NCBI GenBank assembly: GCA_002291925.1
Contig: DBAY01000024.1
Span: 1,078-65,077 of the forward strand
Source of the DNA: Alphaproteobacteria bacterium UBA998
Lineage (GTDB): Bacteria; Pseudomonadota; Alphaproteobacteria; Rickettsiales; UBA998
Reading direction: 5' to 3'
DNA: 64,000 nucleotides
Shown: one piece after another, positions 41,292 through 46,413 of the stretch
How positions within the stretch are numbered: the first letter of the stretch is position 1
Layout of the letters: every line of letters starts with the position of its first letter
The notes under the pieces: generated by a model
Seen by the model: only the letters and a program-made list of their open reading frames with translations
Databases searched by the model: none
What the model was told of the DNA's origin: nothing
Position numbers and translations under genes: made by a program

Positions 41292-42191
41292 CTAGTAATT
41301 ATTCGCATTGATGATGCCTGGATCGATGTCGATTCCCTCGGAGGGAACGTCCAAAACAGCAGCTTCAGAAAATCCGTTCAAATCATACTCCGAGAGAAGG
41401 TTCCCGCCCGCGTCACGGACTTGAACCCAATTATCTAGAGTTGTCGTAATGACCGACCCCGCATCAACCGCGACACTGGTGCCATCAGGAAGGCGCAGCA
41501 AGGTATTCCCTGCGACTGAAATTGGGTTGCGAAGTGATGAGATTCCGGGGAAACCGGGCGCACTCGCTCCTGCGCCTACCGAAACGCTCTGGACCCCTGT
41601 CATCGCGGCACTTCCGTTGACCCGAACACCATTGGGGCCTGCGCAGGCCGATCCACCGATAGCGCCAAGGCCGCACACATTTACATTGCCGGATATGCAG
41701 GAACCTGTGATCCCTCCGCGAATATTCGCCGTCAGGTTCTGCAGGCAGGAAAGTACGTTAGGAAACGGAAAGGAGGTGAAAATATTGATGGAAGGCGGCC
41801 CGTAACTCGCTCCCCCGGCACCGCTTTTATTACAGGCGAACTTTGCTCCACTGTCTGACTCGCCGCCGGGCTTCGTGTTGGAGGTGGCATATGAGCATCC
41901 TTCACCAGCATAGTGAGGCATGGATTCTTTCGCCGTCTTGAGTCCGGCATGTATGGTGCCGCCGGTGCCCATTTCATTTGCGCCTGATTGACGTTCCGCG
42001 CCAGTGCCGCCCCGAATAATCCACTCTTTCGGAGGGTCATAGCCATCAGCAATGCATTTGCGGATCAGGTTGGGATCGAGATTTTGGGATTCATTGATGT
42101 TGGTGCTTCCCAACGAGGTGCATGAGGCGGCAACCGCGCCAGAACCCCAAAACCCGGCGAGAATGAAAGATACCAGTAAGAACGGCTTCAT
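41292..42191 (-). CDS. secreted Gly/Cys-rich hypothetical protein (299 aa), no recognisable family
   Basis: Signal peptide (MKPFLLVSFILAGFWGSGAVAA). I count 8 Cys. It has Gly/Ser/Asn-rich stretches (GGITGSCISGNVNVCGLGAIGGSACAGPNG). It lies 9 bp downstream of the 836-aa gene on the same strand, in sequence that is visibly AT-richer than the flanks. Confidence 0.7.
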   Translation of the reverse strand: MKPFLLVSFILAGFWGSGAVAASCTSLGSTNINESQNLDPNLIRKCIADGYDPPKEWIIRGGTGAERQSGANEMGTGGTIHAGLKTAKESMPHYAGEGCSYATSNTKPGGESDSGAKFACNKSGAGGASYGPPSINIFTSFPFPNVLSCLQNLTANIRGGITGSCISGNVNVCGLGAIGGSACAGPNGVRVNGSAAMTGVQSVSVGAGASAPGFPGISSLRNPISVAGNTLLRLPDGTSVAVDAGSVITTTLDNWVQVRDAGGNLLSEYDLNGFSEAAVLDVPSEGIDIDPGIINANNY

Positions 42192-42200
42192 CCGCGTGCC

Positions 42201-44711
42201 CTAATTCCTGACGTCGGTGTGAATATTGTAGCGCTTTACCCGGTCCCACAGCGGTTCGACGCAGTCATTAAGCTGGGGGTCCACGCATTTTTCCGTATGC
42301 CTGCCTACGTTCTTCAAACGGTCACGAATCCAGTTAGGCAAGGCGTCCTTGTAGAGATTGAAACTCTCTCCCATTCCCATATCCTGTGTGTTTCCGCAGG
42401 CATCAGGAAATTTTCCGTGGTTGTGGGCAACCACTCGAATGAACTGTTCTCCGGGTGCACCGTCGGGGCCTCCCGTAGAACCACCGCCCGATTGTCCCTC
42501 ATTCCTGGCGCGATTGTTATCGGTTTCCGTAACATACGCCACGTATGGCAAACGCCACACCGAATCATCGCCGGTGGTGCTTTCGCCGCGCTCGCTTCCG
42601 CTTTGCATGACTTCCGCGTCGAAGATCAGTACATCGCCCTGTTTTGCATTATCAAGGCCGGTTTCTATAGCCGGGCTTCCACTCCCAAAGTAAGGAAAAC
42701 GGTTGCCGGGGTCGATGTCCATCACGTAACCGCGCCATGCTTTAGGCCATGGTACGGTCATGTACCTGTCCATCCTTTTATCTGCCGGATTGGGCACTCT
42801 GAGCTGAGGTGCCGCCCCCGCCATATCAAGCACAAACTGCTCCGTGTCGTCCGGCTTGTTAACGATTTCGTTGCGCGGCAGGCAATAGAGCCCTTTGCGC
42901 ATGGCGTTCACCTGATAGAGCTTGAGCTCCATCCAGTCCGTAATGGGGCTGGGATTAGGAACACCCAGGCGCCCCAAACTGCCACCGAGCAGACAGCTCT
43001 GGCCCTCTCTGCCCGCGCCCATGATAGCCCAGCGCGATCCGGCACTCGAATTCAGCGGATCGTCTCCACTAGATAAGTCAAGACCACATTCCTGTCCCGT
43101 GTCCCAGCAGCGCATGTAGGGGCGGTGGTTCTTGAAATAGCTGTCGAATCGGTAACCGTGTGGCACGCCATGGGGGAAATTATTCTCGCCGGAAGGACTT
43201 GGTTGGGTATCACGCATCTTCAAGGCATTGACTGGAACTACCGGTTTTGCAAGAAATTCGCACGTCCGCCGGATGGACATCATGGGCTCGACCAGATTGT
43301 CGCACACTGGGCTGATGATGGGAGCGTTTGGTTTGTCCCATTCCGTAGAGCAGCAGTAGCCTCTCCCCGTACATCCCCACAGGTTCCAGCATCGAATGAA
43401 TCTTCCGCACCACATTGACCTGGTGGCCACATTGAAAGCGATACGGGCGTAGATCAGGCGCTCGAAACGGGCGCGCCGCCATTCCATCACATCGACGGGA
43501 ATGATATTGTCTCTATACCCGCCCGAGCACCGCACGGAGTTGAGCCCATCGCCATAGCCATAAGCTCTGGTCGCAGGTGAATACTGTGCCCGCTCGTTGA
43601 ATTTATAGTCCCAACGTGGAGAAAAGGGGTGGCTGGGGTCGATGATTCTTTCAAGCTGCAGGTGATCAGCCGCCAGATCAGACAGTTCGGTGTGGCCAAA
43701 CGAACCTACCGGCGGATCGATTGACTTGGTAATCCGGATGTTGTGACCATTACTTCCAGAGCCGTAATTAGGCTCAGCCGGAGCTTCGCCATTTCTTAAC
43801 AAGTAATTGGAATTGCTCAGAAGCTTGCGCCATGCCACCACGTAATACCAGTCAGCGGCATATTCCTGATCCACTCTGCTCACAGGAATCATGCGCAACG
43901 GCTGACAGGTTTGATTGCTGTAGGTCGGTACCGCGCTTTGAGGCTCATGGGCAATATTGGTATAACGTGCATTTTGCTGAAGAATATACTGGTTCACACA
44001 GTTATCCATCTCCAGTCGCTGCCACTCCGGGCTATAGGGATCGCGGCCAACGCTGGTGGATTCCACCATTCTTTCACAGCTGGTGGCTGACGAGCCCTGC
44101 GTGGGCTGGTTCAAACGGGAATTATAGCGGAAAAGGTTATAGGTGCCGCGGTACAAGGGCCCGATGTAGGGACTATAGGAACCTGCCTGCTTGCGTATCT
44201 CTATTAGCTTCTCTTCTGCTCCGGAGAATTCCGATTTAGATGGATTTTGGATACTGATGTAGTACCATTCGTTCAATTCAAGTGGTGAATAAAGCGGTGT
44301 AGTTTTATGCCTGATAGGCATGTTGGGTTTGGATTGCGACCCGTAGACCTTGCTTGTTGTTGTCAGTTCGTCCTTCTGGTATTGTCTGTCCTCTGCGCCA
44401 AAACTGTTGTTGAAGTAGAAATTCCTGTTAAGCAGCATGTTGATTTCATAACGCACTGCCCGCATATCGGTTAGGCTTCCGAGTATTTTAGGATCAACGG
44501 CTTTGGCGATCTCATTGTTGTCCAAGACATAGGAGCCGTCATTAAAACCACCGCCTGAACCGGATGAACCAATCACGTTTCCTGTGCTGCCGCTGACAGC
44601 CCCGCCGCCGCCATCGCCACCTGGATCGGCTGCGAGAGAGAAAGAGAAAAGCGAAATGCATCCAAAGCTGGTGAGTAGGAACCAAGGAGCTTTCACTGAC
44701 TTTCTGGGCAT
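42201..44711 (-). CDS. secreted Cys/Trp/Tyr-rich hypothetical protein (836 aa), no recognisable family
   Basis: Signal peptide (..WFLLTSFGCISLFSFSLAADP), then a Gly-rich tract (GGDGGGGAVSGSTGNVIGSSGSGGG). I count about 18 Cys in the mature part, including the cluster WCGRFIRCWNLWGCTGRGYCCSTEW. It is a long uninterrupted ORF in AT-richer DNA, where random long ORFs are less likely. Confidence 0.75.
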   Translation of the reverse strand: MPRKSVKAPWFLLTSFGCISLFSFSLAADPGGDGGGGAVSGSTGNVIGSSGSGGGFNDGSYVLDNNEIAKAVDPKILGSLTDMRAVRYEINMLLNRNFYFNNSFGAEDRQYQKDELTTTSKVYGSQSKPNMPIRHKTTPLYSPLELNEWYYISIQNPSKSEFSGAEEKLIEIRKQAGSYSPYIGPLYRGTYNLFRYNSRLNQPTQGSSATSCERMVESTSVGRDPYSPEWQRLEMDNCVNQYILQQNARYTNIAHEPQSAVPTYSNQTCQPLRMIPVSRVDQEYAADWYYVVAWRKLLSNSNYLLRNGEAPAEPNYGSGSNGHNIRITKSIDPPVGSFGHTELSDLAADHLQLERIIDPSHPFSPRWDYKFNERAQYSPATRAYGYGDGLNSVRCSGGYRDNIIPVDVMEWRRARFERLIYARIAFNVATRSMWCGRFIRCWNLWGCTGRGYCCSTEWDKPNAPIISPVCDNLVEPMMSIRRTCEFLAKPVVPVNALKMRDTQPSPSGENNFPHGVPHGYRFDSYFKNHRPYMRCWDTGQECGLDLSSGDDPLNSSAGSRWAIMGAGREGQSCLLGGSLGRLGVPNPSPITDWMELKLYQVNAMRKGLYCLPRNEIVNKPDDTEQFVLDMAGAAPQLRVPNPADKRMDRYMTVPWPKAWRGYVMDIDPGNRFPYFGSGSPAIETGLDNAKQGDVLIFDAEVMQSGSERGESTTGDDSVWRLPYVAYVTETDNNRARNEGQSGGGSTGGPDGAPGEQFIRVVAHNHGKFPDACGNTQDMGMGESFNLYKDALPNWIRDRLKNVGRHTEKCVDPQLNDCVEPLWDRVKRYNIHTDVRN

Positions 44712-44743
44712 AGCATCCGCACTTGCAGTAAACGTTTGTCATT

Positions 44744-44822
44744 AAACTGTAACATTGGAACATTTCATTTTTGTTACAGTTTTGTCGAAATTTTAAAACT
44801 TGCAGTCTAATTTACTGTAAAA
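44744..44822. promoter_or_regulatory. AT-rich divergent control region with ACTGTAA-type repeats
   Basis: There is a perfect 11-bp inverted repeat, aaactgtaaca (44744-44754) and tgttacagttt (44772-44782). A third related copy, ttactgtaaaa (44812-44822), abuts the VirB8-like start. The motif acttgcagt occurs twice (44721 and 44798). Confidence 0.4.
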
Positions 44823-45599
44823 ATGAGACCGCTCACCGGACCATGGATACTATTTATTATTGTTATGAGCGTTGACGATCAGGACATTTCCGCAGCCCTC
44901 GAAGACGGCTCATACTTCCAGGCGGCGCGGCGCTGGTATTCGGACATCTACATCTCCGTCATCTCCCAGCGCTATTTCTTCATCATCCTGACCACCCTTG
45001 CGGCCCTCACGGGCCTGCTCGCGCTCATCGGCATCCTGCGCCTCATGCCGCTGACGCCGCGCGCGCCGTTCCTCTATGAGGCGGATGACGCATTCAACCA
45101 GATTCCCATCGTGCGCCCCATCAAGACCTACCGCACACAGGACATCAACGATGCGCTGCGACGGTTTTTCCTCAATGAATACGTCCAGCAGCGCGAGGGC
45201 TATAGCAGTGACTCCGTCACCCGGCGGATCAACTTCGTGCGCAACCACAGCGACCGGAACACCTTCGCGCGCTACGGCGCCTACATGGATGTACGCAATC
45301 CGCGCAGCCCGGTGCAGGAACTGGGCATCTATTCCACCAAGCTGACGCGCATCGAAAGCTCACAGGTCACGCTTCAACCTATAACGAACCGGCAGAATTA
45401 CTGGCTGGCCAGCATTCCGTTCAGCGTTACCATCAATGGCCAGCAGACCACGCGCACCACAAATTTCCGCGCGGACGTCACCTTCTTTTATAAAGATTTG
45501 ATTGTCGAGCAGACAAGGGATATGGAGGAAGATAAGCCGTTTGACATTACGCCCATGCGTTTTATCGTGACGGATTATAAGGTCAGGCAGTTCAGGTAG
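44823..45599 (+). CDS. VirB8/TrbF-superfamily-like bitopic inner-membrane protein
   Basis: The architecture is a short cytoplasmic N-terminus (SYFQAARRWYSD), one TM segment (YFFIILTTLAALTGLLALIGIL..PL) and a roughly 170-aa periplasmic domain ending in P.RFIVTDYKV, comparable to the NPLGF.VT.Y ending of VirB8. It lies immediately upstream of a VirB9 homologue. The ATG at 44865 is an alternative start. Confidence 0.6.
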   Translation: MRPLTGPWILFIIVMSVDDQDISAALEDGSYFQAARRWYSDIYISVISQRYFFIILTTLAALTGLLALIGILRLMPLTPRAPFLYEADDAFNQIPIVRPIKTYRTQDINDALRRFFLNEYVQQREGYSSDSVTRRINFVRNHSDRNTFARYGAYMDVRNPRSPVQELGIYSTKLTRIESSQVTLQPITNRQNYWLASIPFSVTINGQQTTRTTNFRADVTFFYKDLIVEQTRDMEEDKPFDITPMRFIVTDYKVRQFR

Positions 45600-45621
45600 C
45601 TGATTCAAGGATAGGGGCCGT

Positions 45622-46413
45622 ATGAACAAGGCGTTTTGGGCGATTACTGCATTGCTTTTCCTCCATGCCCTGCCCGCTTCCGCGCTGCAGGAGCCGCGCC
45701 CTCTCGCCACGGACCGCCGCATCCAGACCGTGCGCTACAGCGCCAACGAGATCTATGATTTCATCGGCCATTACGGCTACCAGTCCATCATCGAATTTGC
45801 CCCCGATGAAGAGATCTCCACCGTTTCGCTCGGCGATTCCATCGCCTGGCAGGTGAACCCGGTCGGCTCGCGGCTGTTCCTGAAGCCCGTGGAGCAGGAT
45901 GCGCTGACCAACATGTCGGTCATCACCAACAAGCGCACCTACCATTTCGAACTGCATGCCGAGGAGACGGAAAACATCCGCGACAAGGACATGATCTTCC
46001 TGCTGCGCTTCATCTATCCGGATGATTACGCAGGTGATTATTCCAATTTCGTCAATGAAGATCCGCTGCCAGACCTTACCGATCCGGAGGTGCTGAAAAC
46101 GCTCAACTTCAATTACTCCATCGTTGGCAACGATGTCGCAGCTCCTATCCGCATCTTCGATGACGGAGAATTCACTTACATGGAATTCAAAGACGTCAAT
46201 GGCGATATTCCGGCAATTTTCTGGGTGGATTCGGGCGGTGAGGAGAACCTCGTCAACTTCCGCAAGAACGGGAGTTATATTGTCATCGAGCGTGTGACGT
46301 CGCAATTCACTCTTCGCAGTGGCCCGGACGTGATGTGTGTCTTCAATGAAAGCCGGCCGCTACCGCCGCGTACTCCGCCGACGCCGGAGCGCGACTGGTG
46401 GGAATTCTTCTAA
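45622..46413 (+). CDS. virB9: type IV secretion system protein VirB9/TrbG family
   Basis: Signal peptide. The N-domain reads DRRIQTVRYSANEIYDFIGHYGYQSIIEFAPDEEISTVSLGDSIAWQVNPVGSRLFLKPVEQDALTNMSVITNKRTYHFEL. The C-domain reads NFNYSIVGN...PIRIFDDGEFTYMEFKD...PAIFWVDSGGEENLVNFR. Both match the VirB9/CagX/TrbG consensus as I know it. Confidence 0.8.
   Translation: MNKAFWAITALLFLHALPASALQEPRPLATDRRIQTVRYSANEIYDFIGHYGYQSIIEFAPDEEISTVSLGDSIAWQVNPVGSRLFLKPVEQDALTNMSVITNKRTYHFELHAEETENIRDKDMIFLLRFIYPDDYAGDYSNFVNEDPLPDLTDPEVLKTLNFNYSIVGNDVAAPIRIFDDGEFTYMEFKDVNGDIPAIFWVDSGGEENLVNFRKNGSYIVIERVTSQFTLRSGPDVMCVFNESRPLPPRTPPTPERDWWEFF

What the first reader, a model, noticed from the sequence alone, without database searches (positions are those of the whole stretch)
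44823..46413. VirB8-like and VirB9 genes without any other T4SS component nearby
In canonical virB/trb operons, the B8-B9 (trbF-trbG) pair is followed directly by B10/trbI and B11. Here the VirB9 stop overlaps the convergent truA stop, so nothing follows it. Both ORFs are intact, with a plausible signal peptide or TM segment and an SD-like AAGGA upstream of virB9. That argues against simple decay.

Orphan or duplicated B8/B9 genes are established for the Rickettsiales rvh systems. Seeing such a pair in this high-GC alphaproteobacterial context is unusual.
Basis: partly seen in the sequence, partly recalled or inferred. Interest (0 to 1): 0.6.

Follow-up and report, generated by a model that had tools for sequence, protein, structure and literature searches.

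The report
Detached VirB8-VirB9 secretion gene pair
Two intact type IV secretion genes sitting alone among housekeeping genes are most likely the separately encoded VirB8/VirB9 pair of a chromosomal, Rickettsia-like secretion machine that is conserved across many uncultured alphaproteobacteria, and they are usually partnered with two unknown secreted proteins.

Summary
Window 44823-45599 encodes a divergent VirB8 and 45622-46413 a canonical full-length VirB9, whose stop overlaps the convergent truA stop. No other T4SS gene lies in the window or in the 10 kb after it, about 74 kb in all. It is neither a misjoin nor decay: four independent assemblies share the junction, and all genes are under purifying selection.

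The pair is not an oddity. At least 132 species-level genomes of uncultured alphaproteobacteria match this VirB9. In all 80 loci fetched the same virB8-virB9 pair sits in housekeeping synteny.

In relatives, a complete chromosomal operon (virB2-B4-B6-B8-B9-B10-B11-D4) with its own VirB8/VirB9 lies elsewhere. In one contig it starts about 3 kb from the detached pair. The detached VirB8 lacks the NPXG motif and the operon VirB8 keeps it, which is the RvhB8-II versus RvhB8-I contrast known from Rickettsiales.

So the pair most likely belongs to a scattered, rvh-like T4SS. The main operon was not found for this genome, so that step is inferred.

They accompany the pair in about two thirds of decidable loci. 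They are the new element.

The parts
41292..42191 (-). 'SM': 299-aa protein of unknown family with a signal-peptide-like N-terminus, Gly/Cys-rich, encoded downstream of BIG on the same strand
   Evidence: No Pfam or NCBIfam match. It is homologous to the 453-aa protein at the same position in the distant locus L007 (26% identity, E 1e-14). My family HMM finds it next to BIG in 33 of 80 species-level loci. dN is far below dS. GC3 is 0.57, against about 0.75-0.8 for its neighbours.
42201..44711 (-). 'BIG': 836-aa Cys/Trp-rich protein of unknown family with a signal-peptide-like N-terminus, transcribed divergently from virB8-virB9
   Evidence: No Pfam, NCBIfam or PDB sequence match, alone or as a family profile. 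It is 39% identical over 769 aa to the protein at the same position in L007, which has different flanking genes. It is adjacent and divergent to the pair in 46 of 70 decidable species-level loci. The family has two conserved halves with a variable insert, and lengths run from 746 to 2709 aa. The AF2 model is poor (pLDDT 45.6) and the fold search gave nothing.
44712..44822 (.). AT-rich divergent intergenic region shared by BIG and virB8, holding the inverted repeat TGTAACA-N17-TGTTACA at 44748-44778; a candidate operator or promoter
   Evidence: The repeat is invariant in the relatives L005 and L008, with one mismatch in L009, although synonymous sites are saturated. It occurs once in the window against 0 expected. 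It was not found in more distant loci. Its function is inferred, not tested.
44823..45599 (+). Divergent VirB8 (detached type): N-terminal cytoplasmic segment, one hydrophobic segment, periplasmic VirB8 domain; lacks the NPXG motif
   Evidence: PF04335 E 1.4e-16. It gives only weak matches to solved VirB8s: Bartonella VirB8 at 30 bits and R. typhi RvhB8-II (4O3V) at 27.5 bits. It has TPMRF where the operon-type VirB8s of relatives have NP[LI]G. A gene of this type sits immediately upstream of virB9 in all 88 loci examined. dN/dS is about 0.15.
45622..46413 (+). Canonical full-length P-type VirB9 (detached type): signal-peptide-like N-terminus, N-terminal and C-terminal beta-sandwich domains
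   Evidence: TIGR02781 236 bits, above the cut-off of 217.7. It aligns over its full length to TrwF of R388 (E 7e-29). It is 44.8% identical to a conjugative Xanthomonas plasmid VirB9. The AF2 model has pLDDT 80. By Foldseek the NTD matches the TrwF NTD (TM 0.84, rmsd 1.6 A) and the CTD matches the TraO CTD (TM 0.74). The CTD signature PIRIFDDGEFTY is kept. It is 81% identical to the L005 orthologue, whereas TruA is 72%.

Best explanation
The two genes are the separately encoded VirB8/VirB9 pair of a vertically inherited, chromosomal, rvh-like P-type type IV secretion system. The rest of that system (virB2-virB4-virB6-virB8-virB9-virB10-virB11-virD4) lies elsewhere in the genome.

Inferred mechanism:
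- The canonical VirB9 made here is exported by Sec and joins VirB10 from the main operon in the outer-membrane core complex.
- The divergent, NPXG-less VirB8 forms its own homo-oligomers in the inner-membrane and periplasmic part of the machine, or in a variant of it, as proposed for RvhB8-II.
- The divergently transcribed secreted proteins BIG and SM share the control region with the pair. They are most likely periplasmic or surface partners, or cargo, of this sub-assembly.

Shown: the identity and intactness of both genes, the conservation of the pair, the existence of two paralogous B8/B9 pairs plus a full operon in relatives, and the NPXG contrast.

Inferred: that this genome has the main operon, that this VirB9 assembles with the operon's VirB10, and any role of BIG and SM.
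For: Identity.

Conservation: 132 species-level genomes match this VirB9 and 80 loci were fetched. With the 8 loci, all 88 have virB8 directly upstream of virB9 and none has B10/B11 after it. Synteny with murU/amgK/tsaE, truA, ccmE-F or gpsA-nadA recurs, so inheritance is vertical.

Selection: dN is far below dS for all four genes, and VirB9 is more conserved than TruA.

Full T4SS in the clade: L089 carries, on one 22-kb stretch, BIG <-> virB8-virB9, then 3.2 kb of housekeeping genes, then virB2-B4-B6-B8-B9-B10-B11-D4. L057 shows the same arrangement in part. The same operon sits in conserved housekeeping synteny in L090, in the P0252 and P0201 contigs, and in L093, L096-L098 and L102-L105.

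Co-occurrence on separate contigs: the detached pair (L060, L071) and a full operon (L103, L105) come from the same two JGI projects. L060 is the best tetranucleotide match of L103 (r 0.91). L071 is the third-best match of L105 (r 0.89).

Paralogy: detached and operon VirB9 of one genome are 35-43% identical, and the VirB8s 23-27%.

rvh-like contrast: the detached VirB8 lacks NPXG and scores 61-67 bits on PF04335, while the operon VirB8 keeps NP[LI]G and scores 167 bits. The detached VirB9 is above the TIGR02781 cut-off in 3 of 3 tested; the operon VirB9 is below it in 2 of 3. In Rickettsia the canonical rvhB9-I and the divergent rvhB8-II likewise form an operon apart from rvhB8-I-rvhB9-II-rvhB10-rvhB11 (PMC4676284).
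Against: The main operon was not found for the window's own organism. It is not in the window or the 10 kb after it, about 74 kb of the 109-kb contig in all. No hit came from its metagenome sample.

Co-occurrence on one contig is shown only for L089 and L057. The two JGI project pairs rest on sample identity plus base composition.

In some relatives the operon stops after virB6. The number of B8/B9 pairs per genome may therefore vary, and in such genomes the detached pair could be the only one.

The VirB9 criss-cross is not absolute: the operon VirB9 of L103 scores 245 bits.

No VirB7 or VirB3 was identified in any locus.

My neighbour-joining VirB9 tree does not resolve whether the two types are sister paralogues (bootstrap 6-14%). 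Rickettsiales Rvh sequences could not be included.
Confidence: 0.7

Rival explanations
1. An autonomous module. VirB8 and VirB9 have been exapted, together with BIG and SM, into a self-contained envelope device, for example for outer-membrane anchoring, display or export of BIG. This device would work without VirB4/B10/B11 and would merely coexist with a T4SS in some genomes.
For: The four-gene cassette keeps its divergent arrangement in 46 of 70 decidable loci across VirB9 identities of 52-100% and in different neighbourhoods. All four products have a signal-peptide-like N-terminus or a hydrophobic segment (read from the sequences). The pair is never followed by B10/B11. The detached VirB9 is more conserved between genomes than the operon VirB9: 53-74% against 49-57%. 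No main operon was found for this genome.
Against: In 24 of 70 decidable loci the pair has no BIG next to it, for example the ccmE-F <-> virB8-virB9-gpsA loci. The pair's function therefore does not require adjacent BIG. From established knowledge of solved core complexes (R388, pKM101, Xanthomonas), VirB9 has no outer-membrane pore of its own; VirB10 provides it. This VirB9 keeps the canonical C-terminal domain and is 45% identical to a conjugative plasmid VirB9, as expected if the VirB7/VirB10 contacts are retained. Every relative for which enough sequence was available shows a full operon.
Confidence: 0.17
2. A remnant of a decayed or recently integrated conjugative element. The pair would be what is left of a virB operon from a plasmid or ICE, and is not functional.
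For: No B10/B11 follows. The 41-46 kb region has lower G+C (0.49-0.58 against about 0.62). The best annotated match of the VirB9 is a conjugative plasmid gene.
Against: Both ORFs are intact, with dN/dS of about 0.03-0.15. Orthologous pairs sit in the same housekeeping synteny in many species. No integrase, relaxase or repeat boundary was seen. The GC3 of virB8 and virB9 (0.76 and 0.73) is native-like; only BIG and SM are lower.
Confidence: 0.03
3. An assembly artefact: a chimeric join at the virB9/truA border.
For: The overlapping convergent stops look abrupt.
Against: The identical junction is present in four independent assemblies. truA lies convergently after virB9 in the 81%-identical relative L005, and a truA-family gene is the next gene after virB9 in 7 species-level loci.
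Confidence: 0.01

Closest known systems
Rickettsiales vir homolog (rvh) T4SS, specifically the rvhB9-I / rvhB8-II operon (Gillespie et al. 2009, PMC2653234; 2015, PMC4676284)
   Same: It is a chromosomal, vertically inherited P-type T4SS split over several loci among housekeeping genes. It has two VirB8 and two VirB9 paralogues per genome. A divergent VirB8 without the NPXG motif is encoded together with a canonical VirB9, away from the locus that holds the canonical VirB8, the other VirB9, VirB10, VirB11 and VirD4. There is no VirB5. VirB6 is enlarged.
   Different: Here the gene order is virB8 then virB9. The main locus in relatives is one operon (B2-B4-B6-B8-B9-B10-B11-D4) with a single VirB6. 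The operon VirB9 keeps a full C-terminal domain. VirB4 duplication was not seen. The hosts look free-living and motile, with flagellar, chemotaxis, Trp and LPS genes, and G+C runs from 43 to 64%. The detached pair is usually coupled to the BIG and SM secreted proteins; I found no description of such a partner in the papers I read. Orthology to Rvh proteins was not tested, because no Rvh sequences other than 4O3V were available.
Canonical VirB/VirD4 (MPF-T) systems: Agrobacterium VirB, R388 Trw, pKM101 Tra, Xanthomonas plasmid and chromosomal VirB
   Same: The VirB9 is a bona fide member: above the TIGR02781 cut-off, 45% identical to a Xanthomonas plasmid VirB9, 38% to an Agrobacterium plasmid VirB9, and both domains superpose on TrwF and TraO. 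The VirB8 carries the PF04335 domain.
   Different: The pair is not followed by virB10/virB11, is not on a mobile element, and its VirB8 lacks NPXG and matches solved VirB8s only weakly.
[quoted passage not shown] 2022, PMC9352585)
   Same: Environmental alphaproteobacterial MAGs with flagella, chemotaxis, full biosynthesis and higher G+C, carrying a chromosomal T4SS with duplicated components. Many loci here are labelled 'Rickettsiales bacterium'.
   Different: Whether the window's organism belongs to these families could not be tested. The MAG names in my loci (UBA6149, UBA6178, UBA6189, UBA1002) do not appear in that paper's main text; only UBA6187 and UBA6177 turned up in my searches of it. 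Other loci are labelled Azospirillum or Azospirillaceae.
Bordetella Ptl system (recalled from the literature, not tested here)
   Same: It is a T4SS that exports a cargo first delivered to the periplasm by Sec. This is a precedent for proteins with a signal peptide, such as BIG and SM, being T4SS-dependent cargo.
   Different: There is no sequence relation between BIG or SM and pertussis toxin. This is an analogy only.

Membership tests
P-type VirB9 (TIGR02781 / PF03524) | Full-length match above the curated equivalog cut-off | tested here: met
   236.3 bits against a cut-off of 217.7, profile positions 4-247 of 248. PF03524 E 7e-60.
P-type VirB9 (TIGR02781 / PF03524) | Two beta-sandwich domains, an NTD (I-layer) and a CTD (O-layer), joined by a flexible linker | tested here: met
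   The AF2 model has pLDDT 80, with a low-confidence linker at residues 134-145. By Foldseek the full-length TrwF match has E 9e-20, the NTD has TM 0.84 and rmsd 1.6 A, and the CTD has TM 0.74 against TraO (2OFQ).
P-type VirB9 (TIGR02781 / PF03524) | C-terminal domain residues that contact VirB7 and VirB10 | tested here: inconclusive
   The CTD signature (P-I-R-I-F-D-D-G-E-F-T-Y...FTLR.G....CV.N) is conserved and aligns with TrwF and plasmid VirB9s. Individual contact residues were not mapped, and no VirB7 partner was identified.
P-type VirB9 (TIGR02781 / PF03524) | Encoded in a virB8-virB9-virB10-virB11 operon | tested here: not met
   truA follows convergently. No B10 or B11 lies in the window plus the 10 kb after it, about 74 kb in all.
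VirB8 (PF04335) | Match above the Pfam gathering score, and a bitopic topology | tested here: met
   61.4 bits against 23.2, residues 35-235. A hydrophobic segment at about residues 50-73 is read directly from the sequence. The fold was not modelled.
VirB8 (PF04335) | Conserved C-terminal NPXG motif at the dimer interface | tested here: not met
   The window has TPMRF at the aligned position. All 8 detached VirB8s aligned lack the motif there, and 5 of 6 operon VirB8s have NP[LI]G.
Rickettsiales rvh T4SS | Two VirB8 and two VirB9 paralogues in one genome | tested here: inconclusive
   Met in the relative L089 on one contig, and probably in two JGI projects. Not testable for the window's own genome with these tools.
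Rickettsiales rvh T4SS | A divergent NPXG-less VirB8 (type II) encoded with the canonical VirB9 (type I), apart from the B8-I/B9-II/B10/B11/D4 locus | tested here: met
   compared with PMC4676284. One caveat: the operon VirB9 of L103 is also canonical by score.
Rickettsiales rvh T4SS | No VirB5 analogue | tested here: met
   In the operons of relatives virB4 is followed directly by virB6, and no VirB5-like ORF was detected.
Rickettsiales rvh T4SS | Multicopy VirB6 | tested here: not met
   Every operon seen has a single enlarged VirB6: 538-614 aa in most, 967 aa in L103, and a roughly 2,400-aa reading frame in L106.
Rickettsiales rvh T4SS | VirB4 duplication, with type II lacking ATPase motifs | not tested
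   Only one VirB4 per locus was seen. Most operon VirB4s have a Lys-to-Arg or Lys-to-His P-loop. A second copy was not searched for.
Rickettsiales rvh T4SS | Orthology to Rvh proteins, and a host within Rickettsiales | not testable with these tools
   No Rvh sequences were available except the PDB hit 4O3V (27.5 bits). The organism is known only from the labels on the MAG records.

The most novel reading that the evidence does not exclude
The detached VirB8/VirB9 pair and the divergently transcribed BIG and SM proteins would form a dedicated sub-system. In it, a specialised VirB8-II/VirB9-I assembly exports or displays a fast-evolving giant Cys-rich surface protein that reaches the periplasm by Sec. 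This would give the long-unexplained 'type II' paralogues of rvh-like T4SSs a concrete function. It would also define a new family of T4SS-associated proteins in free-living relatives of Rickettsiales.
Probability: 0.25. Interest if true: 0.65.

Novelty: new variant of a known kind. Interest (0 to 1): 0.42.

Why it matters
The function of the duplicated 'type II' components of the Rickettsiales rvh secretion system is unknown. Those bacteria are obligate intracellular and hard to manipulate.

This locus shows the same detached arrangement of a divergent VirB8 with a canonical VirB9. It is conserved in more than a hundred species of uncultured, apparently free-living and motile alphaproteobacteria.

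Here the pair has a conserved genomic partner: two secreted proteins of unknown family. That gives a testable lead for what the extra pair does. It also bears on how far back the odd rvh architecture goes, before host association arose.

For annotation, an 'orphan' virB8-virB9 in such genomes should not be read as a decayed conjugation system.

Tried and rejected
1. Structure of BIG. AlphaFold2 on a 14-sequence alignment gave pLDDT 45.6. Foldseek against the PDB gave no match with E below 1. The family profile gave no PDB or Pfam sequence match. The fold remains unknown.

2. Finding the main operon of the window's own genome.
   - Matching 'longest contig' lengths between the VirB9 and VirB4 hit lists gave no shared contig, but both lists are cut at 120.
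   - The listing of cluster members gave no usable accession numbers.
   - Five look-ups of VirB4 hits held by both NCBI and JGI all led to two other JGI samples (3300059473, 3300044610), not the window's samples.
   - Extending the contig by 10 kb found housekeeping genes only.

3. VirB9 phylogeny. A neighbour-joining tree of 197 sequences placed the detached and operon types apart, but with bootstrap support of 6-14%. I draw no conclusion on duplication versus separate origin. Rickettsiales Rvh sequences could not be obtained.

4. A shared regulatory motif. The TGTAACA-N17-TGTTACA repeat is confined to the window's close relatives, and no common motif turned up across 44 intergenic regions. 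The regions upstream of virB2 were covered only by the exact-pattern search.

5. A BIG-SM fusion as a 'Rosetta stone'. The apparent double hit in L070 is a weak overlapping match. Rejected.

6. Literature searches on Micavibrio, RF32, and orphan or duplicated virB8/virB9 in uncultured alphaproteobacteria found no description of this cassette.

7. An early idea that ComEC (50244-52265) and the pair form a ComB-like DNA-uptake system was dropped. Across the 81 sources clustered, a ComEC-like neighbour recurs in only 6, and it is not among the genes called around the pair in L007.
Full report
**1. The observation**

The two ORFs are as described. Window 44823-45599(+) encodes a 258-aa protein that matches Pfam VirB8 (E 1.4e-16). 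Window 45622-46413(+) encodes a 263-aa protein that matches TIGR02781 'P-type VirB9' over its whole length, at 236 bits against a curated cut-off of 217.7. AAGGA lies 10 nt before the virB9 start. The virB9 TAA and the truA stop on the opposite strand overlap in the sequence CTAA at 46410-46413.

The rest of the window is housekeeping: a Mur ligase, a type II topoisomerase B subunit, mfd, recG, bamA, skp, lpxD/I/B, flhB, fliR, rod proteins, cheY/cheZ, tsaE, an APH-family kinase, murU, truA, fmt, def, gltX, comEC, trpE/G/D/C, a SurA-like chaperone, tpiA and pyrG.

A phmmer search with VirB1/4/5/6/8/9/10/11 of a Xanthomonas plasmid against every reading frame of the window found only the two known genes. 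The next 10 kb of the 109-kb source contig is housekeeping as well.

**2. Not an artefact and not decay**

The same junction occurs in four independent assemblies. The 81%-identical relative L005 has the same gene order from cheZ to trpE.

Between the window and its relatives, synonymous sites are saturated while dN stays low, at 0.135 for VirB9 and 0.29 for VirB8. VirB9 (81% amino-acid identity) is better conserved than TruA (72%).

**3.

Two genes are transcribed divergently from virB8. BIG (42201-44711, 836 aa) and SM (41292-42191, 299 aa) both have a signal-peptide-like N-terminus. Neither matches anything in Pfam, NCBIfam or PDB sequences.

The same four-gene arrangement recurs in L007/L021, a 1.76-Mb contig with entirely different flanking genes. 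There all four proteins are homologous to the window's: 39%, 26%, 34% and 60% identity.

**4. Distribution**

A scan of one genome per GTDB species with an alignment of this VirB9 subfamily found 132 relatives. The 80 best were kept, at 51-82% identity. All are uncultured MAGs labelled 'Rickettsiales bacterium', 'Alphaproteobacteria bacterium' or 'Azospirillum/Azospirillaceae'.

In all 88 loci then held, a VirB8-like gene lies directly upstream of virB9, and no locus has virB10/virB11 after it.

Of the 70 species-level loci with enough upstream sequence:

| Upstream neighbour of the pair | Loci |
|---|---|
| BIG adjacent and divergent (33 of all 80 loci also have SM) | 46 |
| ccmE-ccmF, with gpsA-nadA downstream and no BIG | 17 |
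| Other neighbours, no BIG | 7 |

Recurrent neighbours are murU, a kinase gene, tsaE, truA and hisI. There were no recurring integrases or relaxases. The pair is therefore an old, vertically inherited chromosomal feature of a large clade.

**5. The rest of the machine exists in the clade**

The only additional T4SS hit within 10 kb of any detached pair was a VirB4, preceded by a VirB2-like pilin gene, in L057.

Using that VirB4 as a query returned 686 relatives from the same kinds of MAGs. Its 69%-identical relative lies on L089, where one 22-kb stretch reads as follows:

- BIG (1671 aa) <-> virB8-virB9
- hisI and other housekeeping genes (3.2 kb)
- virB2, virB4, virB6 (583 aa), virB8, virB9, virB10, virB11, virD4

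The same eight-gene operon is seen elsewhere, with no virB5, virB1, virB3 or virB7 called. In L090 and the P0252 contig it has matching downstream neighbours (His_Phos_1, ppk). The upstream set (YjgF, EVE, PAP2, scoAB, two DUF2336 genes, NAD kinase, EamA) is seen in L090 and partly recurs in the P0193 and P0246 contigs. It occurs in L090, in the P0252 and P0201 contigs, and in nine metagenome contigs. In at least one genome it ends after virB6, so the system can be split further.

Two JGI projects each yield one contig with the detached pair plus BIG (L060, L071) and another with the full operon (L103, L105). L060 is the best compositional match of L103 (r 0.91), and L071 is the third-best match of L105 (r 0.89).

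**6. Two paralogous pairs with an rvh-like contrast**

Within one genome, detached and operon VirB9 are 35-43% identical, and the two VirB8s 23-27%.

| Feature | Detached type | Operon type |
|---|---|---|
| VirB8, PF04335 score | 61-67 bits | 167 bits |
| VirB8, best solved VirB8 | 30 bits | 83 bits (Bartonella VirB8) |
| VirB8, NPXG motif | absent (TPMRF and similar) | NP[LI]G kept |
| VirB9, TIGR02781 (cut-off 217.7) | 230-236 bits in 3 of 3 | 197-200 bits in 2 of 3; 245 in L103 |
| VirB9, best plasmid identity | 45% | 36% |
| VirB9, identity between genomes | 53-74% | 49-57% |

The AlphaFold2 model of the window VirB9 (pLDDT 80) superposes on both domains of TrwF and on the TraO CTD.

Gillespie et al. 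(PMC4676284, read) describe the same pattern in Rickettsia. The canonical rvhB9-I and the NPXG-less rvhB8-II form their own operon. It is separate from rvhB7-rvhB8-I-rvhB9-II-rvhB10-rvhB11 and rvhD4. The role of the type II paralogues is unknown.

Schon et al. (PMC9352585) report the rvh system, with duplications, in free-living-like, flagellated, higher-GC deep Rickettsiales.

**7. Interpretation**

The pair in the window is best read as the detached VirB8-II/VirB9-I-like locus of such a scattered, chromosomal, rvh-like T4SS. Its VirB9 is probably a working core-complex subunit.

The presence of the main operon in this particular genome is inferred, not shown. I could not reach the rest of the MAG.

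Membership in rvh proper is only partly supported:

- Met: the B8/B9 duplication in relatives, the NPXG contrast, and the absence of VirB5.
- Not met: multicopy VirB6.
- Not tested: VirB4 duplication and orthology to Rvh proteins.

**8. BIG and SM**

BIG consists of two conserved halves separated by an insert of very variable length. Total length runs from 746 to 2709 aa, and the window copy is near-minimal. BIG and SM have lower GC3 (0.60 and 0.57) than all neighbours, including virB8 and virB9.

BIG and virB8 share a 111-bp AT-rich intergenic region. It holds an inverted repeat that is invariant among close relatives.

Conserved divergent pairing across deep divergence argues for a functional link. 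My working inference is that they are periplasmic or surface partners, or cargo, of the detached pair. There is no direct evidence, and about a third of decidable loci lack an adjacent BIG. The fold could not be predicted.

**9. Verdict**

The finding is real, and its core is explained by a known kind of system, rvh-type scattering and duplication of VirB8/VirB9.

The new elements are the breadth of this arrangement in uncultured, apparently free-living alphaproteobacteria and the conserved BIG/SM partner genes. Interest is moderate.

Noticed in passing
Relatives' operon VirB4 proteins (P0135-P0254; for example L091 10001-12361): Most operon VirB4 proteins of this clade have a non-canonical P-loop, G(K/R)P(G/K)(S/T)GRT or G.EKSGHT. 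Only about 25 of 117 keep the Walker A lysine. This recalls the ATPase-dead RvhB4-II, but here it is the copy inside the operon.
   Followed up: partly
window 44748-44778: The inverted repeat TGTAACA-N17-TGTTACA lies in the divergent BIG/virB8 intergenic region. It is unique in the window and invariant in L005 and L008 despite saturated synonymous divergence. It is a candidate operator and is restricted to the window's close relatives.
   Followed up: partly
window 41292-44711: BIG and SM have GC3 of 0.60 and 0.57, against about 0.75-0.8 for the surrounding genes, including virB8 and virB9. This is what lowers the regional G+C to 0.49-0.58. It could reflect fast or diversifying evolution, or replacement by transfer within the clade.
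   Followed up: no
L089 20060-20842; L062 11756-12568: A 261-aa ORF directly after virD4 carries a prepilin N-terminal methylation motif (PF07963, E 2.5e-4, just under the cut-off). Similar pilin-like genes of about 260 aa occur near detached pairs in 8 loci.
   Followed up: no
L056, L058, L062, L067, L076, L079, L084 and others, around position 9000-12000: In 17 more distant species the pair has no BIG. It sits between the divergent ccmE-ccmF-ccmG-ccmH genes and a closely following gpsA-nadA, apparently embedded in housekeeping operons.
   Followed up: partly
P0193 contig (L091, L092): In at least one genome the T4SS operon ends after virB6 and is followed by pmbA and cox genes. virB8-B11/D4 must then lie elsewhere, or the detached pair is the only B8/B9 there. 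The P0246 contig ends soon after virB6, so it is not informative.
   Followed up: no
L103 12385-15285; L106 12169-19425: VirB6 is greatly enlarged in some lineages: 967 aa in L103 and a reading frame of about 2,400 aa in L106. Only the N-terminal TrbL domain is recognisable in L103, the one scanned against Pfam.
   Followed up: no
window 44823 versus 44865: The virB8 start codon is ambiguous. Gene callers chose 258 aa in two assemblies and 244 aa (ATG at 44865) in another. Homologues align from about residue 20 onward.
   Followed up: no
window 27855-31609 and 37755-38876: Flagellar export and rod genes (flhB, fliR, rod proteins) and cheY/cheZ lie in the window, alongside full Trp and LPS pathway genes. 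The organism looks motile and free-living rather than an obligate intracellular rickettsia.
   Followed up: no
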